The position numbers and the translations under genes are program-made. Under the pieces are notes generated by a model. The model did not search any database and had not been told where the DNA came from. It worked only from the letters and a program-made list of their open reading frames with translations. Below are positions 9,147-25,363 of a stretch of DNA of 64,000 nucleotides, in pieces. The DNA comes from Acidimicrobiia bacterium (lineage in GTDB: Bacteria; Actinomycetota; Acidimicrobiia; Spongiisociales; UBA11373): NCBI GenBank assembly GCA_040878325.1, contig JBBDMM010000018.1, positions 83,083 to 147,082 of the forward strand, given 5' to 3'. How positions within the stretch are numbered: position 1 is the first letter of the stretch; each line of letters starts with the position of its first letter.

Positions 9147-10463
<1,317 letters not shown>

Positions 10464-10518
10464 TGCCGGTGACGGCGATCGGGCGGAGTGTCACCGCCGG
10501 GCACCACAGGAGGCACGG

Positions 10519-11070
10519 GTGATCGACGAGCTACTCCGCGAAGCCGAAGCAAAGATGCATCAGGCGATCGAGCACGTCCGGGGCGAGTTCGGTTCGGTGC
10601 GAACCGGTCGGGCGAATCCATCGATCCTCCACCGGGTGCACGTGGATTACTACGGCACGCCAACGCCTCTGCAACAGCTCGCCTCGGTCTCTGTTCCCGA
10701 ATCCCAGCTGCTCGTGATCGCTCCCTACGACCGGGGGTCGCTCGGTGAGATCGAACGGGCCATTCAGTCGTCAGGCCTGGGGTTGAACCCATCGAATGAC
10801 GGGACCGTGATCAGGCTGTCGTTCCCGCCACTCAACGAGGAACGGCGCCGGGAATTGATCAAGGTCGTCCGCCACATGGCGGAGGAGGGGCGGGTTGCCA
10901 TCCGCAACATACGCCGCCACACCAAGTCCGATCTCGAAGCACTCGAAGGCGAGGTGTCGGAGGACGACGTACGGCGGGGAGAGGCCCGCCTCCAGGAGAT
11001 CACCGACGGTCACACGAGTCGGATCGACGAGCTGCTCGAGCACAAAGAGGCCGAACTGCTGGAGGTGTGA
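10519..11070 (+). CDS. frr: Ribosome recycling factor
   Basis: VIDELLREAEAKMHQAIEHVRGEFGSVRTGRANPSIL. GTG 10519 is preceded by an AGGAGG RBS. The ORF-track start at 10414 is an upstream in-frame extension. Confidence 0.9.
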   Translation: MIDELLREAEAKMHQAIEHVRGEFGSVRTGRANPSILHRVHVDYYGTPTPLQQLASVSVPESQLLVIAPYDRGSLGEIERAIQSSGLGLNPSNDGTVIRLSFPPLNEERRRELIKVVRHMAEEGRVAIRNIRRHTKSDLEALEGEVSEDDVRRGEARLQEITDGHTSRIDELLEHKEAELLEV

Positions 11071-13721
11071 GCCCCGGCAGGCGAGGAGGCGGCGTGAGCG
11101 ACAGGGGAGACAACGACTTTCAGCCCCATCCGGGCGACCCCTGGCATCCCACGTGGGATAGCGCATACGCTGTCGATCGGCCCGTCGATGCTCCCGAAGC
11201 GGATGAGTCCGACCCGGACGGATCTGCTTCCGGAAAGACCAAGCGGGCAAAGCGCGGTCGCCTTGGACGTCGTCGCAAGGATTCCCCGGCTGAGGCGGCA
11301 AGTGACGTCGAAGAGGAGTCGATCGACGATCCGACCCGCGGTGAGGTCGACTTCGATCTCCCGGCGGCGCCGGTAGCCGAGCCGCCGACCGAGGACCGCG
11401 CCCCACTTCCCGCCTGGCTGGCTGAGTCCGGGCCCGACTCCCCGGCCGCACCCGCGCTCGAGGTCGAATTGCCGTCGTGGGTCGGCGGCGCGACTGCCGG
11501 TGCCGATGACGCCGGTGGCGAGTTCCCCGATCAGGTCTTCGACGACCAGGACGAAGGCGACGACGAGTTGGACGACGGAATCAGCGCGCCGGCCGCGGTC
11601 GAGGCATCGGACGAAATTGCGTCGGTACCCCCTCGTGAAGTTCCCGATGACCTGGCGGCGGTGCTCGACGCGCTCGGCGACGACGGCGACGAGATCGAAG
11701 TCCTCGCGGTGGAAGCCTTCGAAGTCGAAGCCGAGGAAGAGGATCCGGAGGAGTTGCCCGATCTCGAGTCACTCGTCGGAGCAGTCGGCGGCTTCCAGGA
11801 CCCCTCGCCCGAGGACGCCGCGGCTCGCTCCGAGTACGGGGTTGCCGGGCGGGATGCGTTCGATGCGCTGAAAGACCCCGATGGATCCGATGACCTCGGC
11901 GACTGGCATCAGTTTGCGGGAGCCACCGGCGACGAGTCGGAGACGCTGCCCATCGAGGTGGTGGTTGATCCCCCGGTGCCTGAGCCGCGCGAAGGTGGGA
12001 AGCGCGGTCGTTGGTTCCGGCGCAAGGTCGAGGAAGCCGACGAGTCGGAGGTCGTCGCCGAGGAGGCGGCCGATTGGGCCGATGACGGCACTGCGATTCC
12101 GGCGGGATGGTTCGCCGAGATCGACGAAGACACCGTGGTCACGCCCCCGGTCGAGCCCCCCGACACCGAGTATCCGGAACCCGACGAGATAGTCGCGGTG
12201 GCGCCGACCGACCTCGGGTCGGATGAGGTCGAGGAGTTGCCGGTGGCGCTGGCGCCGGGGGATTGGTCGGATGAGGTCGAGGAGTTGCCGGCGGCACCGG
12301 TGGCGGGGGATTGGTCGGATGAGGGTGAGGAGTTGCCGGTGGTGCCGGTGGCGCCGTTGGATTGGTCGGTTGAGGGGGAGGTGCTGCGTTCGAATCTCCC
12401 TGCCGCGCCGCAGCCGGGACTCTTCGACGACCGGCATGCCACGGAGGAGTTCGATCCTATCGCTGCAGGCATCGGTGGGGTCGCTCCCGACATTTCCGCA
12501 ACCCCGGATTGGGAAGACGACCGGGCCGGGGAAGCACCAGTGGCGCAAGGGTTAGCCCCCCTGGGCTTCGACGACGGTGAATCGGCCGGTCACGACGAGG
12601 AGCTCACCTCGGACGAGGATGACGAGGGATACGAAGACCGCTGGGTGACTGGCCCCATCGATCTCGGCGGCGAGTACCTCGGGGCGGCCGATGACTCTGG
12701 CGCCTACGAGTCCATCGACGAACTCGACGACGCCACCTATCGGACCTCGTCGACGACCGAACACCGCGGCCTCGCCGAGGAGATCGCCCTCACGGGCGAC
12801 GAGGAGCACGAATGGCAGGCAATGGCCGCGGCGATGCCCGGGGTCGAATCGGGCGTGGTCGGTTTCGAGGATGTGGCCGACCTCGGCGACGACGAGGAGT
12901 ACCTCGATACCAGGGTGCGGTCGGATTTGGGCACCCGGATCCTCACCGGAGTCGTGCTCGGCGGCTTCTTCCTCGGCTCGCTGTGGGTCGCCCCCGAAGC
13001 CCTGGCGGGTTTCATCGCAATCATCCTGCTGCTGGGACTCGGTGAATTCTTCGCAACCGTGCGCCGACGCGGCTGGCGGCCGCTGGCCCTCTTCGGATTT
13101 CTGGGCGCCATCTCGATGCTGGCTACCACCTGGTTCCATGGCCCGATCGCTGTCGCCGCCACGCTGGCGATGACGACGGTCGTGACGTTCTTTGTGTTCG
13201 CCTTCTCGCCGCTGCGCCGGGATGCGCTGACCAACGGCGGTCTCACCGTTCTCGGCCTGGCGTGGGTCGTCGGCACCGCGGCGTTCGTGTACCCGATCCT
13301 GGCCAACGAGGACTATCGGGTCCTGGTGATTGCCATCGTCGTCGTGACCGCAGCCATGGACATCGGCGCATACGCCGTCGGTCGGGCGTGGGGGGTTCGC
13401 GCGCTTGCGCCCGTCCTCTCCCCGAACAAGTCGGTGGAGGGCCTGGTCGGAGGGATCGGCTTGTGCATGCTCGCCGCAGCCGCCGTGGGCAACTTCCTCG
13501 AGCCATTCGACCTGCTCTCCGGCATCGGGTTGGGGATCGTCGTGGTATTCGCCGCGCCCCTGGGCGACCTGGCCGAATCGATGTTCAAGCGAAGCCTCGG
13601 AGTGAAGGACATGGGGTCGATCCTCCCCGGGCACGGCGGAATCCTCGACCGGGTCGATGCCCTCCTCTTCGTGATTCCTGCAGCGTGGGCGTTCTATCAG
13701 ACCGTCGGGTTCCTGGGGTGA
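11067..13721 (+). CDS. cdsA: Phosphatidate cytidylyltransferase (CdsA) with ~590-aa acidic low-complexity N-terminal extension
   Basis: The C-terminal ~290 aa is canonical CdsA (multiple TM helices, SVEGLVGG...AESMFKRSLGVKDMGSILPGHGGILDR). The N-terminal part is D/E/P/A-rich with DWSDEVEELP repeats. The frame is continuously open from GTG 11067, which overlaps the frr stop. The true start is unverified. Confidence 0.75.
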   Translation: MSPGRRGGGVSDRGDNDFQPHPGDPWHPTWDSAYAVDRPVDAPEADESDPDGSASGKTKRAKRGRLGRRRKDSPAEAASDVEEESIDDPTRGEVDFDLPAAPVAEPPTEDRAPLPAWLAESGPDSPAAPALEVELPSWVGGATAGADDAGGEFPDQVFDDQDEGDDELDDGISAPAAVEASDEIASVPPREVPDDLAAVLDALGDDGDEIEVLAVEAFEVEAEEEDPEELPDLESLVGAVGGFQDPSPEDAAARSEYGVAGRDAFDALKDPDGSDDLGDWHQFAGATGDESETLPIEVVVDPPVPEPREGGKRGRWFRRKVEEADESEVVAEEAADWADDGTAIPAGWFAEIDEDTVVTPPVEPPDTEYPEPDEIVAVAPTDLGSDEVEELPVALAPGDWSDEVEELPAAPVAGDWSDEGEELPVVPVAPLDWSVEGEVLRSNLPAAPQPGLFDDRHATEEFDPIAAGIGGVAPDISATPDWEDDRAGEAPVAQGLAPLGFDDGESAGHDEELTSDEDDEGYEDRWVTGPIDLGGEYLGAADDSGAYESIDELDDATYRTSSTTEHRGLAEEIALTGDEEHEWQAMAAAMPGVESGVVGFEDVADLGDDEEYLDTRVRSDLGTRILTGVVLGGFFLGSLWVAPEALAGFIAIILLLGLGEFFATVRRRGWRPLALFGFLGAISMLATTWFHGPIAVAATLAMTTVVTFFVFAFSPLRRDALTNGGLTVLGLAWVVGTAAFVYPILANEDYRVLVIAIVVVTAAMDIGAYAVGRAWGVRALAPVLSPNKSVEGLVGGIGLCMLAAAAVGNFLEPFDLLSGIGLGIVVVFAAPLGDLAESMFKRSLGVKDMGSILPGHGGILDRVDALLFVIPAAWAFYQTVGFLG
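12215..12386. repeat. 48-bp tandem repeat x3.5 inside the cdsA N-terminal extension (encodes DWSDEVEELPxxPVAx)
   Basis: gattggtcggatgaggtcgaggagttgccggyggcrccggtggcgsss repeated head-to-tail. Confidence 0.8.
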
Positions 13722-14860
13722 AGCCGCTAGTCGTCCTCGGGGCGACCGGCTCGATCGGTCGCCAGACCCTCGCCGTCGCCGATCATCTCGGGTGCGAAGT
13801 GGTGGGCATCGCGGCTCGCCGGGGCTCCGAGCAGCTGCTCGAGATCGCCCGCACCCGACCCGAGGCCCTGGTGGCGGTTGCCGCGCCCACCAATAGCGAA
13901 CGAGAGATGTTCGAGGCCGCGTTGGGGGCAAGGGTCCGCTTCGGCCCGGAGTCCCTGGTCGAGATGGCGTCGACAAGCGGGACCATCGTGGTCAACGGCG
14001 TCGTCGGCGCGGTGGGCTTGCCGGTATCGGTCGCCGCCCTGGAGGCCGGCAACCGTCTCGCCCTCGCCAACAAAGAGAGCCTGGTGGTGGGCGGCCCGGT
14101 GGTGACGGCAGCATTGGAGCGGGGCGGCGGCGAGCTCATCCCGGTCGATTCGGAACACAGTGCGCTCCACCAATGCTTGGTCGGCGAGGATCTGGCCGAC
14201 GTGCGTCGGGTGGTTCTCACCGCGTCTGGTGGCCCATTCCGCGGGATGTCCGTGGGGCAGCTGGCCGAAGTGACGGTCGAACAGGCGCTCGAGCATCCGA
14301 CCTGGAAGATGGGGCCGCGGATCACCGTCGACTCGGCGACGCTCATGAACAAGGCGTTCGAGGTGATCGAAGCCCACTATCTGTTCGGATTGGGCTACGA
14401 CGCGATCGACGTGGTCGTCCATCCCCAGAGCATCATCCACGCCTTGGTCGAGTTCGTCGACGGATCGCTGAAGGCGCACCTCGGCGACCCGGACATGCGG
14501 GTCCCCATTCAGTATGCCCTGACCGGTCCCGGCCGGGCCCCGGGCCTCGCCGACCCCTTCACCCTGGCGGGGCGCAACCTGACCTTCGAGCCCCCCGATC
14601 TCGACGCCTTCCCCTGCCTGCGGGTCGGCTACGAGGCAGGGCGGGTGGGCGGCTCGGCGACGACGACCCTCAACGCCGCCGACGAGATCGCGGTGCACGC
14701 CTTCCTGGACCGCAAGATCGGCTTCTCGTCGATCCCCATTGTCGTCGAGCGCACCCTGGAGACGGTCGGGGTGAGCGCCCTCACCACTGTCGACGACGTG
14801 ATGGAGGTGGATCGCGAATCGAGGGCGGTCGCGACGGGGTATCTCGGATCTTCGTGTTGA
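13718..14860 (+). CDS. dxr: 1-deoxy-D-xylulose-5-phosphate reductoisomerase
   Basis: VKPLVVLGATGSIGRQTL...LANKESLV...SGGPFRG. GTG overlaps the cdsA stop. Confidence 0.9.
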   Translation: MKPLVVLGATGSIGRQTLAVADHLGCEVVGIAARRGSEQLLEIARTRPEALVAVAAPTNSEREMFEAALGARVRFGPESLVEMASTSGTIVVNGVVGAVGLPVSVAALEAGNRLALANKESLVVGGPVVTAALERGGGELIPVDSEHSALHQCLVGEDLADVRRVVLTASGGPFRGMSVGQLAEVTVEQALEHPTWKMGPRITVDSATLMNKAFEVIEAHYLFGLGYDAIDVVVHPQSIIHALVEFVDGSLKAHLGDPDMRVPIQYALTGPGRAPGLADPFTLAGRNLTFEPPDLDAFPCLRVGYEAGRVGGSATTTLNAADEIAVHAFLDRKIGFSSIPIVVERTLETVGVSALTTVDDVMEVDRESRAVATGYLGSSC

Positions 14861-21503: not shown

Positions 21504-21995
21504 ATGGTCGAGGCGGATGGCCGGCTCTGGGAGACCCTGGAGCCGTTTCTCGTTGCGGAGGGAGCAGAGCTCGACGACGTCGAGCTGCTCGGCCGCGGCG
21601 CGGGCCGCATCGTCCGGGTGACCGTCGACGCCGCAGGCGGCATCGGCGTCGATCGTCTCGCCGACCTCTCGAAGGGCCTTTCCCGCCTCCTCGACGAAGA
21701 AGAGGTTCTCGACGGCCCGTACACCCTCGAGGTCAGCTCTCCCGGGCTCGAGCGCCGCCTCCGCCGTCCGGCTCATTTCGGCAAGGCCATCGGACGCGAG
21801 GTCATCATCAAGACCCGCGAGCCCATCGAGGGCGCCCAGAGCCATCGGGGGATTCTGAACGCGGTCGTGGACGACTCGGTAGCCGTCGCTGTCGACGGCC
21901 GGGATGTCCGCATCCCTCTCTCCGAGGTCGCACAGGCGAAGACCGTCTTTCGGTGGGAGAAGCCTGCCAAGCCCGGCAAACGAGGTGCGGCATGA
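21504..21995 (+). CDS. rimP: Ribosome maturation factor RimP
   Basis: MVEADGRLWETLEPFLVAEGAELDDVELL...YTLEVSSPGLERRL. GAGGAG RBS. Confidence 0.85.
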   Translation: MVEADGRLWETLEPFLVAEGAELDDVELLGRGAGRIVRVTVDAAGGIGVDRLADLSKGLSRLLDEEEVLDGPYTLEVSSPGLERRLRRPAHFGKAIGREVIIKTREPIEGAQSHRGILNAVVDDSVAVAVDGRDVRIPLSEVAQAKTVFRWEKPAKPGKRGAA

Positions 21996-23185
21996 ACGAG
22001 AATTTCATGGAAGAACTCGACCTTCTCGAGCGCGAGAAGGGCGTGCCCAAGGAGATGATCCTCGACGCCCTGGCCAACGCCCTCGTATCGGCCTACAAGC
22101 GGAGCCCGGGAGCGGCTGAAGAGGCGCGGGTGACCATCGACCAGGACTCGGGCGAGATCACCGTGTATGGCCAGGAACTCGACGAAGACGGCAACGTCAC
22201 CCGTGAGTGGGAAGACACCCCCAGCGACTTCGGCCGCATCGGCGCCCAGACCGCCAAGCAGGTCATCCTGCAGCGGCTGCGCGACGCCAAGCGAGCCCAG
22301 GTGTTCGACATATACGAGGGCCGTGAAGGCGACCTGGTGACCGGGATCGTCCAGCAGTCCGACCATCGCACCGTGATCCTCGACCTCGGCAATGCCGAAG
22401 CCGTGATGCCCGCGGGCGAGCGCATCGCTTACGAACGGCTCGAGCGGGGTGCCCGGGTGAAGGCCCTCATCCTCGAGGTGCGAGCCGAGCCCAAGGGCCC
22501 GCAGATCGTGGTCAGCCGCAGCCACCCCGACTTCATCAGGAGGCTCTTCGAGCTCGAAGTGCCCGAGTTGGTCGAAGGCACCATCGAGATCAGGGCGATT
22601 GCTCGCGATGCCGGCCATCGCACCAAGATCGCGGTCGCATCGAACGATTCCAACGTCGATCCGGTCGGCGCATGCGTCGGTGCTCGCGGATCCCGGGTTC
22701 GTCAGGTGGTCAACGAGCTGCGTGGCGAGAAGGTCGACATCGTGGAGTGGCGTGAGGACGTCAAGCAGTTCATTGCCGAAGCCCTGAGCCCCGCCAAGGT
22801 GCGCTCGGTGACCCTCGACGACGAGGCGATGGAGGCCATCGTGGTGGTGCCCGACCACCAGCTGTCGCTCGCCATCGGCAAGGAGGGCCAGAACGCTCGC
22901 CTCGCCGCCCGGCTCAGCGGCTACCGCATCGACATTCGCCCCGAGAACGAGCCCGAGCCCGAAATCGCCCCCGCCGCAGCCCCCGCGGAAGAGGCCCCTG
23001 CAGCCGCAGCCGCCGAGACACCCGAAGCCGCCGACGAAGTCGAGGCCGCGGTGGCCGCAGCCGGCGAGGAAGCCGCCGACTCGGACGACTCGGACGACTC
23101 AGATGAAGTCGACTCCGACCCGTCTTCCGACGACGAACCCGCCGCATCGTCCGACGAGGACGAGGAGCCGGCGCCCGGGGCCTGA
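21992..23185 (+). CDS. nusA: Transcription termination/antitermination factor NusA (acidic C-terminal tail)
   Basis: MNENFMEELDLLEREKGVPKEMILDAL...; S1, KH domains. ATG overlaps the rimP stop. Confidence 0.9.
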   Translation: MNENFMEELDLLEREKGVPKEMILDALANALVSAYKRSPGAAEEARVTIDQDSGEITVYGQELDEDGNVTREWEDTPSDFGRIGAQTAKQVILQRLRDAKRAQVFDIYEGREGDLVTGIVQQSDHRTVILDLGNAEAVMPAGERIAYERLERGARVKALILEVRAEPKGPQIVVSRSHPDFIRRLFELEVPELVEGTIEIRAIARDAGHRTKIAVASNDSNVDPVGACVGARGSRVRQVVNELRGEKVDIVEWREDVKQFIAEALSPAKVRSVTLDDEAMEAIVVVPDHQLSLAIGKEGQNARLAARLSGYRIDIRPENEPEPEIAPAAAPAEEAPAAAAAETPEAADEVEAAVAAAGEEAADSDDSDDSDEVDSDPSSDDEPAASSDEDEEPAPGA

Positions 23186-23227: not shown

Positions 23228-25363
23228 ATGCGCGTCTACGAACTTGCCCGTGACCTGGGCATGGAATCGAAGGATGTGCTGGCGCGCGTCCATGAGTTGG
23301 GCGTCGATGCCAAGACCGCTTCGTCCGGCATTTCCGACGACGATGCCGCACTCGTCAGACTCTCCTACGAAGAGGAGAAGGCGGCAACTGCGGCACCTGC
23401 CGCGCCCGCTGCTCCCACCCCCGCCGCCGAACCCGCCGCGGTGACCCTCGAGGTGGTCGTCGACGAAGACGACGACGATGACGTCGATGAGGACGGTGCC
23501 GAGGACGGCGATGGCGACGGCCCCGAGATGCGGGCAAAGTCCGGCAAGCGCAAGGGGCGGCTGGTCGGCGACGACGGCCCCGCGCCGCGCCGGCCGGTGA
23601 CCGTGCGCGAAGGCATCACCGTCCAGGAGTTCTCCGACCTCACCCGCCGCCCGGTAGGGATCGTGGTTCGGGAACTGATCACCCGCGGCCTGATGGCTGG
23701 CGCCACCCAGCCGATCCCTGTCGAGATGCTCGAAGTGGTGGGGGAGGCCCTGGGTTACGACGTGACCGTGGAGAAGGCCGTTGCCCCGGCCGTCGTCCCG
23801 GATGAGCCGTTGGTGCGTCCCAAGCGCGAATTCGCCGACGATCCCGCCACCCTGAAGCTGCGTCCCCCGGTCGTCACCGTGATGGGCCACGTCGACCACG
23901 GCAAGACCCAGCTGCTCGACACCATCCGGCGCACCAACGTCGTCGCCGGCGAGGCAGGCCGCATCACCCAGCACATCGGCGCCTATCAGGCAGGCATCGG
24001 CGACAAGAAGATCACCTTCATCGACACTCCCGGCCACGAGGCGTTCACCTCGCTGCGTGCCCGTGGGGCGGAAGTGACCGACGTCGTCGTTCTCGTGGTC
24101 GGTGCCGACGATGGCGTCATGCCGCAGACGGTGGAGGCGATCAGCCACGCCAAGGCCGCCGGGGTGCCGATCGTGATCGCCATAAACAAGATGGACCTCC
24201 CCGGCGCCGATCCCGCCACGGTCCGGGCCCAGCTCACCGAGCACGGCATCATCGTCGAAGGCCTCGGCGGCGACGTCATCAGTGCTGAGGTCTCCGCCCT
24301 CACCGGCCAGGGCATCGAGCAGCTGCTCGAGTACCTCGGCCTCATCGCCGAGATCGAAGAATTCTCGGCGAACCCGGATGCTCCGGCCTCCGGCACGGTC
24401 ATCGAGTCCCAGCTCGAAAAGGGTCGGGGTCCGGTGACCACCCTCATCGTGCAGCGCGGCACCCTCAATCGGGGTGATGCCATCGTCGCCGGAGCGGTCT
24501 CCGGGCGGGTGCGGGCGATGTTCGATCATGCCGGCGAGCAGATCGAAACCGCCGGGCCGAGCACTCCTGTGGTCGTCATGGGATGGGACGACGTCCCCCA
24601 GGCAGGAGACTTCTTCGAGGCAGTCGCCGATGACAAGACCGCACGGGCGATGGCCGCCGATCGGGAAACGGCGACGCGCGACCGAGATCTGTTCGTGCCC
24701 ACGGCGGCCGCTCGCCTCAGCCAGTTGCTCGACGACCTCCGTACCGCCGACGACGCCGAGTTGCCGATCATCGTGAAGGCCGATGCCCATGGGTCGCTCG
24801 AGGCGATCCGGGATTCGGTTGCCAAGATCGGCCGCGAAGGCGGGTCCATTTCGATCATCCACGCCGCAGTCGGCGGCATCACCGAGACCGACGTCCTTCT
24901 TGCGGAGACCACCAACGCCATCGTGTTCGGCTTCAACGTGCGCCCCGACGCCAACTCCCGCAAGGCGGCAGAGGCGGCCGGGGTCGAGGTCCGGACCTAC
25001 CGGATCATCTACGAACTGCTCGACGACATCGAAGCGATCCTCGTGGGGCGCCTCGCCCCCGACGAGGTCGAGCGTGTCACCGGTTCTGCCGAAGTTCGGG
25101 CAACCTTCCGGGCGCCGCGCTTCGGCACCATCGCCGGCTCGTATGTCACCGAGGGCGAGATCACCCGCGGTTCCAAGGTGCGGCTGGTACGTAACGGCGT
25201 CGTCGTATACGACGGCGTCATCGCCTCCCTCCGGCGCTTCAAGGACGACGTCCGCTCGGTCGCCTCCGGCTTCGAATGCGGTATCGCCCTGGAGAACTTC
25301 CGCGACGTAAAGGAAGGCGACGTGATGGAGACGTACGAGGTGCGAGAGGTAGCGCGGACGTAG
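23228..25363 (+). CDS. infB: Translation initiation factor IF-2
   Basis: [18 protein letters not shown]...[14 protein letters not shown]... Confidence 0.9.

What the first reader, a model, noticed from the sequence alone, without database searches (positions are those of the whole stretch)
11067..12850. CdsA carries a ~590-aa acidic, intrinsically disordered N-terminal extension
The frame is open from the frr stop through to the canonical CdsA membrane domain. The extension is D/E/P/A-rich (about 30% acidic), has no hydrophobic segments, and contains the tandem DWSDEVEELP repeats. Ordinary CdsA is about 280-300 aa. Such an appendage on an essential integral-membrane lipid enzyme could be a cytoplasmic tether or scaffold, or it could be an upstream ORF merged by a missing stop. 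No internal stop is present in 1.7 kb, which argues that it is real.
Basis: seen in the sequence. Interest (0 to 1): 0.55.

Follow-up and report, generated by a model that had tools for sequence, protein, structure and literature searches.

The report
CdsA with giant acidic disordered tail
An essential membrane lipid enzyme (CdsA) of an uncultured Acidimicrobiia bacterium really does carry a roughly 610-residue, strongly acidic, floppy cytoplasmic tail; this tail is conserved and under selection in dozens of related genomes, and its function is not known.

Summary
One open frame runs from the frr stop into a catalytically intact CdsA domain (Pfam PF01148, aa 623-879).

- **Start codon:** the real start is GTG 11094, not 11067. 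It has a GAGGAGG Shine-Dalgarno site that is conserved in 24 related loci. The protein is 875 aa, as in the public record.
- **Translated and selected:** Ka/Ks is 0.32-0.33 in two independent comparisons, against 0.07-0.08 for the core. No other frame has both low Ka/Ks and no stops. All indels keep the frame.
- **Composition:** D+E is 28%, against 6% expected from the base composition. Net charge is -139. There are no hydrophobic segments, and AlphaFold2 pLDDT is below 50 throughout.
- **Spread:** 76 species-level genomes, all uncultured and nearly all labelled Acidimicrobiia or Actinomycetota, have CdsA with an acidic tail. Tail length ranges from 105 aa or less to more than 1,400 aa. Every complete copy is fused to CdsA.
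- **Internal structure:** the tail has a conserved N-terminal PHPGDPWHP cap, Trp-acidic islands, two basic-aromatic patches and a family-wide motif next to the membrane. Fast-evolving acidic spacers separate these and grow by tandem duplication.
- **Function (inferred):** a cytoplasmic tether or interaction hub, possibly regulating the enzyme.
- **Status:** no domain-family model, solved structure or paper covers the tail. I rate it a new variant of a known enzyme, of moderate interest.

The parts
11083..11089 (+). Shine-Dalgarno sequence GAGGAGG, 4 nt upstream of the start codon
   Evidence: Seen in the sequence. The same GAGGAGG plus GTG arrangement is present in all 24 loci that carry the N-terminal motif.
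11094..13721 (+). Long-form cdsA gene: 875 codons plus stop, with a GTG start
   Evidence: The stop overlaps the dxr start by 4 nt, as in relatives.
11115..11159 (+). N-terminal cap motif DFQPHPGDPWHPTWD (aa 17-31 in 884-aa numbering)
   Evidence: Its columns are invariant or nearly invariant in alignments A1 and A2. It is present in 24 loci.
11235..11279 (+). Basic patch 1, KTKRAKRGRLGRRRK (aa 57-71). Relatives have KKRRRGLFRRRR.
   Evidence: It is one of only two net-positive 15-aa windows in the tail. It is conserved in alignment A1.
11403..11504 (+). Conserved island PLPAWL...LEVELPSWVGGATAGA (aa 113-146)
   Evidence: V133, W138 and G140 are nearly invariant in A1; the same V, P, W, G and T columns are invariant in A2.
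11802..11921 (+). Conserved island PSPEDAAARSEYGVAGRDAFDALK...LGDWHQFAG (aa 246-285)
   Evidence: The YGVAG core has V259 and A260 invariant and Y257 and G258 nearly invariant in A1; all four are invariant in A2. AlphaFold2 predicts short low-confidence helices here.
12000..12026 (+). Basic-aromatic patch 2, KRGRWFRRK (aa 312-320). Relatives have RRRGIWPFRRRR.
   Evidence: It is the second net-positive window in the tail. R313 is nearly invariant.
12069..12185 (+). Trp-acidic island ADWADDGTAIPAGWFAEIDEDTVVTPP..PDTEYPEPD (aa 335-373)
   Evidence: F349, A350, V357 and P365 are invariant; W337, D340, P345, E354 and P370 are nearly invariant. One of the two peptide patterns used to find genomes came from this island.
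12217..12375 (+). Tandem repeat with a 48-nt (16-aa) unit and 3.2 copies (SDEVEELPxxPVAGDW), inside a variable spacer
   Evidence: Found by Tandem Repeats Finder. L006 differs here by insertions of 9 and 14 residues. More distant relatives have different repeats.
12636..12677 (+). Conserved island DRWVTGPIDLGGEY (aa 524-537)
   Evidence: W526 is nearly invariant in A1 and invariant in A2.
12732..12887 (+). Juxtamembrane motif found across the family: ATYRTSSTTEHRGLAEEIALTGDEEHEWQAMAAAMPGVESGVVGFEDVADLG (aa 556-607)
   Evidence: Ka/Ks is 0.074 against L001 and 0.23 against L006. It is present in nearly all of the 76 genomes and in a 109-sequence alignment. pLDDT is only 47-73 even with the deep alignment.
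12933..13703 (+). CdsA catalytic membrane domain (Pfam PF01148, aa 623-879; nine predicted helices)
   Evidence: The residues that bind metal and form the active site are conserved.

Best explanation
**Shown.**
- The region 11094-12930 is the translated N-terminal tail of a catalytically intact phosphatidate cytidylyltransferase (CdsA).
- The tail is about 610 residues long, strongly polyanionic (net charge per residue -0.23) and predicted to be disordered.
- It is conserved as an N-terminal fusion to CdsA across a clade of uncultured Acidimicrobiia.
- It has a modular layout. An N-terminal proline/histidine/tryptophan cap (PHPGDPWHP), several tryptophan-acidic islands, two short basic-aromatic patches and a motif next to the membrane (TxEHRGLAEE...AMPGVxSGVVGFEDV) are conserved. 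The acidic spacers between them evolve faster and change length by tandem duplication.

**Inferred from topology.** The tail is cytoplasmic. It is attached directly to helix M1. In TmCdsA, the N-terminal region of M1 together with the B-loop lines the substrate tunnel.

**Inferred mechanism (about 0.35 confidence).** The tail acts as a flexible, charge-extended tether. Its conserved linear motifs would recruit partner proteins, for example downstream phospholipid synthases or localisation factors, or contact the membrane, bringing them to the site of CDP-diacylglycerol synthesis. The juxtamembrane motif is the element best placed to modulate access to the active-site funnel. The negative charge itself also appears to be selected, probably to keep the chain extended and away from the anionic membrane and from nucleic acids.
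For: **Coding and selection**
- Ka/Ks of the tail is 0.32 against L001 and 0.33 against L006. The core gives 0.07-0.08.
- Substitutions by codon position are 25/26/59.
- Only this frame combines low Ka/Ks with zero stops.

**Start site**
- A conserved Shine-Dalgarno site plus GTG is present in all 24 loci with the N-terminal cap.

**Conservation of the fusion**
- All 13 homologues carry both the tail and PF01148.
- 76 species-level genomes carry it, with tails bounded at 105 aa or less up to about 1,230 aa and 20-36% D+E in nearly all intact tails.
- A profile of the tail alone found only 90 proteins among 1.84 billion. In every complete one the junction motif lies about 270 aa from the C-terminus, so it is followed by CdsA.
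- Gene order rpsB-tsf-pyrH-frr-cdsA-dxr-rseP-ispG is kept.

**Acidity is selected rather than a by-product of GC content**
- D+E is 28%, against 6.4 +/- 1.0% in composition-matched shuffles. K+R is 5%, against 17%.
- Other genes in the window have 7-17% D+E.

**Disorder**
- No hydrophobic segment.
- pLDDT is below 50 for essentially all of aa 1-619.
- The junction stays at 47-73 even when the core exceeds 90 with a 109-sequence alignment.

**Motif islands**
- Invariant and nearly invariant columns, rich in tryptophan, are listed.

**Active enzyme**
- The equivalents of TmCdsA D144, K167, D219, E222, K226, D246 and D249 are present.
- The model superposes on 4Q2E/4Q2G with a TM-score of 0.80.

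**Topology**
- The TmCdsA N-terminus is cytoplasmic, and M1 plus the B-loop line the tunnel (PMC4083444).
Against: - No partner, localisation or activity data exist. All relatives are metagenome-assembled genomes, and no cultured isolate was found.
- AlphaFold2 does not dock any tail element onto the core. A regulatory contact is therefore not predicted, although a monomer model could not show contacts that depend on the dimer or on a partner.
- Some clade members have tails of only about 100-135 aa that lack the N-terminal cap and islands. The long part is therefore dispensable for CdsA function in related organisms.
- Translation of the full-length product has not been observed directly.
Confidence: 0.5

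Rival explanations
1. Artefact. The long ORF is an upstream ORF or non-coding spacer joined to an ordinary cdsA by a missing stop, an assembly error, or the chance openness of a GC-rich frame.
For: GC-rich genomes do give long chance ORFs. The window holds many stop-free stretches longer than 300 codons, and the antisense frames across this region are open for 226-474 codons.
Against: - P(no stop by chance) is about 5e-7.
- Ka/Ks is 0.32-0.33 in two comparisons.
- Conserved protein islands and frame-preserving indels are seen in 13 homologues and 76 genomes from independent assemblies.
- A conserved Shine-Dalgarno site plus start codon is present.
- Every apparent split is an N-run, a contig end or a frameshifted call.
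Confidence: 0.02
2. Two products. The cell mainly uses an ordinary short CdsA. This would be made either from an internal start (ATG 12822 or 12834, or GTG 12915) or by proteolytic removal of the tail, as reported for Plasmodium CDS. The long form would then be a minor species, a precursor or a separately acting fragment.
For: - M590 is nearly invariant among close relatives.
- Plasmodium CDS is processed, and its N-terminal extension is nevertheless essential (PMC7018664).
- Some clade members manage with tails of about 100 aa.
Against: - There is no convincing Shine-Dalgarno site at a useful distance from the internal ATG or GTG codons. GAGGAG lies 14-16 nt upstream.
- No promoter-like site lies inside the gene.
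- The methionine is replaced by Ile or Leu in distant relatives such as P0014 and P0096.
- The junction motif upstream of these codons is as constrained as the core against L001 (Ka/Ks 0.074), so it is part of the functional protein.
Confidence: 0.15
3. Pure polyelectrolyte brush. The tail works through bulk charge and size alone, with no specific partners. Possible roles are keeping CdsA out of crowded or nucleoid-occluded regions, sensing or generating membrane curvature by steric pressure, or buffering Mg2+/K+ near an enzyme that needs both.
For: - Composition is conserved while length (about 100 to over 1,400 aa) and spacer sequence are not: D+E is 20-36% in nearly all intact tails.
- Acidity far exceeds the compositional expectation.
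- Spacers grow by tandem duplication.
- TmCdsA uses a Mg2+-K+ centre (PMC4083444).
Against: A charge-only function does not explain the invariant Trp/Pro/His-containing islands, the conserved N-terminal cap at a fixed distance from the start codon, or the two conserved basic-aromatic patches.
Confidence: 0.2
4. Autoregulatory lipid sensor. The two basic-aromatic patches bind anionic lipid, either the substrate phosphatidic acid or the PG/CL/PI products, while the acidic bulk is repelled by it. The conformation of the tail would then report membrane surface charge, and the juxtamembrane motif would gate the active-site funnel accordingly.
For: - There are exactly two conserved polybasic-aromatic patches in an otherwise polyanionic chain.
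- The tail joins M1, whose N-terminal region lines the substrate tunnel (PMC4083444).
- The junction motif is the most constrained and most widely conserved tail element.
Against: - This is entirely inferential.
- AlphaFold2 places no tail element on the core with any confidence.
- Relatives with short tails lack the basic patches.
Confidence: 0.15
5. The tail is outside the cytoplasm, as an acidic surface polymer.
For: Negatively charged N-terminal tails can in principle be translocated.
Against: - There is no signal peptide or hydrophobic segment before aa 624.
- Arg residues flank M1 on the N-terminal side, and RRRGWRP follows the second helix (sequence).
- The TmCdsA N-terminus is cytoplasmic in a nine-helix fold, and the model matches that fold.
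Confidence: 0.03

Closest known systems
Bacterial CdsA / phosphatidate cytidylyltransferase (Pfam PF01148; Thermotoga maritima TmCdsA, PDB 4Q2E/4Q2G)
   Same: The C-terminal 262 residues are an ordinary CdsA.
- Pfam match with E 7.6e-54.
- A nine-helix model with TM-score 0.80 to 4Q2G.
- All metal-binding and active-site residues are conserved.
- The usual frr-cdsA-dxr gene order.
   Different: TmCdsA is about 270 aa and begins a few residues before M1, and E. coli CdsA lacks a hydrophilic N-terminus (PMC4083444, PMC7018664). Here about 610 disordered acidic residues precede M1. The protein scores below the NCBIfam equivalog cut-off for E. coli-type CdsA (89 against 385 bits).
Apicomplexan CDP-DAG synthases with long N-terminal extensions (Plasmodium, Toxoplasma), and the shorter hydrophilic N-termini of eukaryotic CDS1/2
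   Same: The same enzyme family carries a long, poorly conserved hydrophilic N-terminal extension ahead of the first membrane helix. In Plasmodium the extension is essential even though the catalytic part alone is active (PMC7018664).
   Different: The two arose independently, and I saw no sequence relation: the tail profile found only CdsA-linked relatives of this tail among 1.84 billion proteins. The apicomplexan protein is proteolytically processed. No such information exists here.
Acidic N-terminal A-domain of E. coli FtsY (from my own knowledge, not tested here)
   Same: It is a bacterial example of a long, highly acidic, disordered N-terminal region on a protein that works at the membrane.
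   Different: It is about 200 aa long, sits on a peripheral GTPase rather than an integral enzyme, and has no sequence relation to this tail. It is an analogy only.

Membership tests
CdsA / CTP_transf_1 (PF01148) | Match to the family profile above the curated cut-off | tested here: met
   183.7 bits against a cut-off of 24. It covers aa 623-879 and profile positions 2-263 of 264.
CdsA / CTP_transf_1 (PF01148) | Metal-binding dyad and accessory active-site residues (TmCdsA D219, D249, E222, K226, D246, K167, D144) | tested here: met
   The alignment to 4Q2G gives D834, D864, E837, K841, D861, K788 and D765 (residue roles from PMC4083444). All except E837 (nearly invariant) are invariant in alignment A1.
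CdsA / CTP_transf_1 (PF01148) | Nine-helix CdsA fold | tested here: met
   AlphaFold2 with 109 sequences gives core pLDDT above 90. Foldseek finds 4Q2G and 4Q2E with E about 1e-8 and a TM-score of 0.80 normalised to the target.
CdsA / CTP_transf_1 (PF01148) | CDP-diacylglycerol synthase activity | not testable with these tools
   This needs an enzyme assay or complementation of a cdsA mutant.
NCBIfam NF008635 (PRK11624, E. coli-type CdsA equivalog) | Score above the equivalog cut-off | tested here: not met
   89 bits against a cut-off of 385, matching only aa 753-872. It belongs to the family but is not an E. coli-type equivalog by that model.
Intrinsically disordered region carrying short linear motifs | Low hydrophobicity, high net charge and no predicted fold | tested here: met
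   Net charge per residue is -0.23 and the fraction of charged residues is 0.33. The highest 19-residue Kyte-Doolittle mean is 0.87. pLDDT is below 50 over nearly all of aa 1-619. Pfam and NCBIfam match nothing in the tail at E up to 1, and phmmer against the PDB nothing at E up to 0.01.
Intrinsically disordered region carrying short linear motifs | Faster evolution than the folded domain, many indels and repeats, and short conserved islands | tested here: met
   Ka/Ks is 0.33 against 0.08. Lengths range from about 100 to over 1,400 aa, and repeats are lineage specific. Invariant islands are listed.
Intrinsically disordered region carrying short linear motifs | Experimentally shown disorder and motif-partner binding | not testable with these tools
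   This needs NMR, SAXS or CD, and interaction assays.
Apicomplexan-type extended CDS | Homologous N-terminal extension, proteolytic processing, and essentiality of the extension | tested here: inconclusive
   The tail profile search found no relative outside the CdsA-linked relatives of this tail, which argues against homology. Processing and essentiality cannot be tested here.

The most novel reading that the evidence does not exclude
The tail is a previously unrecognised regulatory or organising module for bacterial phospholipid synthesis. On this reading it is a polyanionic disordered hub whose conserved Trp/Pro-acidic motifs, basic-aromatic patches and juxtamembrane motif assemble partners. 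Alternatively, or in addition, they sense anionic lipid and so control the committed CDP-DAG step. It would be a bacterial counterpart, evolved independently, of the essential N-terminal extension of apicomplexan CDS.
Probability: 0.25. Interest if true: 0.7.

Novelty: new variant of a known kind. Interest (0 to 1): 0.5.

Why it matters
- CdsA catalyses the committed step to all CDP-DAG-derived phospholipids. In bacteria it is regarded as a bare membrane enzyme of about 270-300 aa with no regulatory appendage.
- Here a whole clade of environmentally widespread, uncultured Acidimicrobiia has added an acidic disordered tail of 100 to over 1,400 residues. The tail is under purifying selection and holds a fixed set of conserved short motifs.
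- Disordered regions of this length are rare in bacteria, especially on essential integral membrane enzymes.
- If the motifs recruit partners or gate the active site, this would be a tractable example of regulation of lipid synthesis by a disordered region in bacteria. It would also be an independent parallel to the unexplained essential extension of Plasmodium CDS.
- There is a practical point too. Public annotation calls these proteins plain "phosphatidate cytidylyltransferase", and gene callers sometimes truncate them or misplace their starts.

Tried and rejected
- **GC3 as a coding test.** It is inconclusive, because the first codon position is 59% G. The reverse-complement frame then shows "GC3" of 0.80-0.81 and long shadow ORFs at 10771..11451, 11769..12548 and 12552..13976 (-). 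I replaced it with Ka/Ks in all six frames.
- **Split versions** in L011, L031 and L035. These are scaffold gaps (runs of N), not real stops.
- **Tail-profile hits without a CdsA domain** (P0021, P0044, P0046, P0096, P0099). These are contig-end truncations inside or before M1, or frameshifted Arg-rich calls.
- **Domain and structure searches on the tail.** Pfam and NCBIfam found nothing in it at E up to 1, and phmmer against the PDB found nothing at E up to 0.01.
- **RNA and signal scans.** Rfam over 10000-14500 gave no match. There are no promoter-like or terminator-like sites in 10400-13900.
- **Internal start codons.** None has a well-spaced Shine-Dalgarno site.
- **AlphaFold2, full length.** The model is uninformative for the tail (pLDDT below 50). 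The junction plus core with 109 sequences gave a confident core, but the junction motif did not dock.
- **Conserved motifs elsewhere in the window.** None occurs outside this gene. Only trivial RRGxxRR strings appear, in non-coding frames.
- **Literature.** Searches for CdsA extensions in Actinobacteria or Acidimicrobiia found nothing relevant.
- **Proteome-wide acidity**, such as a halophile signature. Rejected, because other ORFs in the window have 7-17% D+E.


Full report
**1. Checking the observation**

The ORF list shows one open frame at 11067..13721 (+) of 884 codons, between frr (ending at 11070) and dxr. Pfam places the cytidylyltransferase (CdsA) domain only at aa 623-879 (E 7.6e-54). 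More than 600 residues therefore precede the enzyme.

For aa 10-622, D+E is 28.1%, K+R 5.4% and net charge -139. The highest 19-residue hydropathy mean before aa 600 is 0.87, against more than 1.6 for each membrane helix of the core.

It has a 48-nt (16-aa) unit and 3.2 copies at 12217-12375.

From the region's base composition, 14.3 stop codons are expected in 613 codons, so P(none) is about 5e-7. The other five frames hold 2-21 stops.

**2. Start codon**

The GTG at 11067 overlaps the frr stop and has no ribosome-binding site. GAGGAGG lies at 11083-11089, four bases before a GTG at 11094. Homologues begin at exactly this point (MSDRG.., VSDR..), and the public record for the identical protein is 875 aa (P0001).

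All 24 loci that encode the N-terminal motif PHPGDPWHP have the same GAGGAGG followed by GTG (once TTG) 4-6 nt downstream. The gene is therefore 11094..13721, 875 codons.

**3. Is the tail really coding?**

GC3 in frame is 0.66-0.86 over most of the tail, dipping to 0.56 near its start. This test is weak here. The first codon position is 59% G, so the reverse-complement frame imitates a coding signal and carries long shadow ORFs. I therefore used substitution patterns.

- Against the 89%-identical relative on L001 (aa 230-884 available), Ka/Ks is 0.32 for the tail, 0.074 for the juxtamembrane segment and 0.074 for the core.
- Against the independently assembled L006 (90% identity, full length), the whole tail gives 0.33 and the core 0.08.
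- Substitutions fall 25/26/59 on codon positions 1/2/3.
- Of the six frames, only the annotated one combines Ka/Ks below 1 with no stops.
- The proteins align end to end, so every indel preserves the frame.

The tail is translated and under purifying selection, though the constraint is weaker than on the core.

**4. Relatives**

A search with the whole protein found 13 relatives of 654-1163 aa at 29-90% identity (two are incomplete at the N-terminus). All have a long N-terminal region plus PF01148. Their contigs keep the order rpsB-tsf-pyrH-frr-[long cdsA]-dxr-rseP-ispG.

A scan of one genome per species, using an alignment of the tail alone, returned 76 loci. All are from metagenome-assembled genomes, nearly all labelled Acidimicrobiia or Actinomycetota, and none is from a cultured isolate.

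In those loci the ORF that holds the CdsA domain has an upstream part bounded at 105 aa or less in the shortest cases and reaching about 1,230 aa in the longest. D+E is 20-36% in nearly all intact tails, and 13-19% in a few whose start is uncertain.

A profile of the tail alone, run against 1.84 billion representative proteins, found only 90 hits (E <= 1e-3). In every complete protein the last tail motif lies about 270 residues from the C-terminus, so it is followed by CdsA. The longest is 1687 aa, with the domain at 1426-1681.

Hits without the domain are contig-end fragments or frameshifted calls. Three apparently split loci contain runs of N. I found no case where the tail is a separate gene or is fused to anything else.

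**5. Anatomy of the tail**

Alignments A1 and A2 show that the tail is not uniform low-complexity sequence. The conserved islands, in 884-aa numbering, are:

| Element | Position (aa) |
|---|---|
| N-terminal cap DFQPHPGDPWHPTWD | 17-31 |
| Basic patch KTKRAKRGRLGRRRK | 57-71 |
| PLPAWL...LPSWVG | 113-146 |
| SEYGVAG..AFDAL..DW | 246-285 |
| Basic-aromatic patch KRGRWFRRK | 312-320 |
| DW..IPxxWFAEIDEDxVV.PP..ETEWPE-type island | 335-373 |
| WVTGPIDLG | 524-537 |
| Juxtamembrane motif TTEHRGLAEEI..EWQAMAAAMPGVESGVVGFEDVADLG | 556-607 |

Tryptophan is strikingly frequent among the invariant columns. The two basic patches are the only net-positive 15-residue windows in the whole tail.

The juxtamembrane motif is the element shared by essentially all members, including those with short tails. 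Between the islands lie acidic spacers that differ in length and carry lineage-specific tandem repeats. The 16-aa repeat of the window differs from L006 by insertions of 9 and 14 residues there, and is replaced by unrelated repeats in P0004.

The acidity is not a side effect of GC content. Composition-matched shuffles of the same DNA give 6.4 +/- 1.0% D+E and 17% K+R, against 28% and 5% observed. Other genes in the window have 7-17% D+E.

**6. Structure**

- AlphaFold2 on the full-length protein gives pLDDT below 50 for essentially the whole tail. Only short low-confidence helices appear, at some islands.
- With a 109-sequence alignment of junction plus core, the core is modelled at pLDDT above 90. 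It matches TmCdsA (4Q2G/4Q2E) with a TM-score of 0.80.
- The juxtamembrane motif stays at 47-73 and does not dock. This is the usual behaviour of a conserved linear motif that folds only on a partner, on the dimer mate or on the membrane.
- The residues that bind the Mg2+-K+ centre in TmCdsA, and the accessory residues, are all present. D219, D249, E222, K226, D246, K167 and D144 correspond to D834, D864, E837, K841, D861, K788 and D765. The enzyme should be active.

**7. Topology**

Arginines flank the first helix on its N-terminal side, the loop after it is short and uncharged, and RRRGWRP follows the second helix (sequence). By the positive-inside rule the N-terminus is cytoplasmic.

The TmCdsA paper reaches the same orientation for the nine-helix fold. 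It also reports that the N-terminal region of M1 interacts with the B-loop to form the side tunnel of the substrate cavity (PMC4083444). The tail is therefore cytoplasmic, and its last conserved motif hangs at the mouth of the active-site funnel.

**8. How it most likely works**

What is shown: a translated, selected, disordered, polyanionic cytoplasmic tail that carries conserved linear motifs and is always fused to an intact CdsA.

What is inferred: the conserved islands are binding sites for proteins or membrane, strung on charge-extended spacers. The tail would then act as a tether or hub that brings partners to the site of CDP-DAG synthesis. The juxtamembrane motif is the element best placed to influence substrate access.

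The rivals are:
- a pure charge brush with no specific partners;
- an anionic-lipid sensor that uses the two basic-aromatic patches;
- a two-product arrangement, through an internal start or through cleavage, as in Plasmodium.

For an internal start I found no well-spaced ribosome-binding site and no promoter-like site, but only protein data can exclude it. The artefact reading and the extracytoplasmic reading are effectively excluded.

**9. Comparison with what is known**

By profile, active-site residues, fold and gene context, the C-terminal part is a member of the CdsA family (see the membership table). It falls below NCBI's E. coli-type equivalog cut-off.

The tail matches no Pfam or NCBIfam model and no PDB sequence. 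Four literature searches found nothing on it.

The nearest analogue is the long N-terminal extension of apicomplexan CDS. That extension is essential in Plasmodium and is poorly conserved in sequence (PMC7018664). The resemblance is one of architecture, not of ancestry.

**10. Verdict**

It is a new variant of a known enzyme: a clade-wide elaboration of CdsA in Acidimicrobiia, already in public databases but not recognised as unusual. Interest is moderate (0.5). It is surprising for a bacterial lipid enzyme and open to experiment, but its function is unknown and all carriers are uncultured.

Noticed in passing
window 21953-23185 (+) and 23228-25363 (+): The NusA-like ORF ends in an acidic tail of about 80 aa (..SDDSDDSDEVDSDPSSDDEPAASSDEDEEPAPGA). 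The IF-2-like ORF has an acidic run ([22 protein letters not shown]) near aa 75-100. Both proteins were identified by eye from the translation, not by a family search.
   Followed up: partly
window 10771-11451 (-), 11769-12548 (-), 12552-13976 (-): Long antisense ORFs of 226-474 aa lie opposite cdsA. The two opposite the tail have coding-like 'GC3' (0.80-0.81). They are shadows of the sense frame, which has 59% G at the first codon position. Over the tail (aa 230-560), the antisense frames in the comparison with L001 show stops and/or Ka/Ks above 1.
   Followed up: yes
window 13718-13721: The cdsA stop overlaps the start of dxr by 4 nt (a 380-aa dxr ending at 14860). The same overlap is seen in L001-L005, which suggests translational coupling within a conserved rpsB-tsf-pyrH-frr-cdsA-dxr-rseP-ispG block.
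   Followed up: partly
window 10414-11070 (+): The mechanical frr ORF is 218 aa, but frr in relatives is 183 aa. The true start is probably the GTG giving VIDELLREAEAKM.., about 35 codons downstream of the listed ATG.
   Followed up: no
P0042 (1687 aa); L058, L060, L034: Some relatives have far longer tails: about 1,420 aa in P0042 and about 1,000-1,230 aa in L034, L058 and L060. Others with the same juxtamembrane motif are bounded at 105-135 aa (for example L039, L040 and L049). Tail length thus varies more than ten-fold within the clade.
   Followed up: partly
P0004 (relative), tail region: P0004 carries two spacer repeat families unrelated to the window's repeat (ELPAEPAFE-type and LVEVEPVDEGLDVE-type). 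Repeat expansion has therefore happened independently in the same spacers.
   Followed up: no
L021, L069, L076, L027, L073 (record titles): A few loci with the Acidimicrobiia-type cdsA sit in bins labelled Kiloniellaceae, Kiloniellales, Saprospiraceae or Acidobacteria. These are most likely binning or labelling errors rather than horizontal transfer.
   Followed up: no
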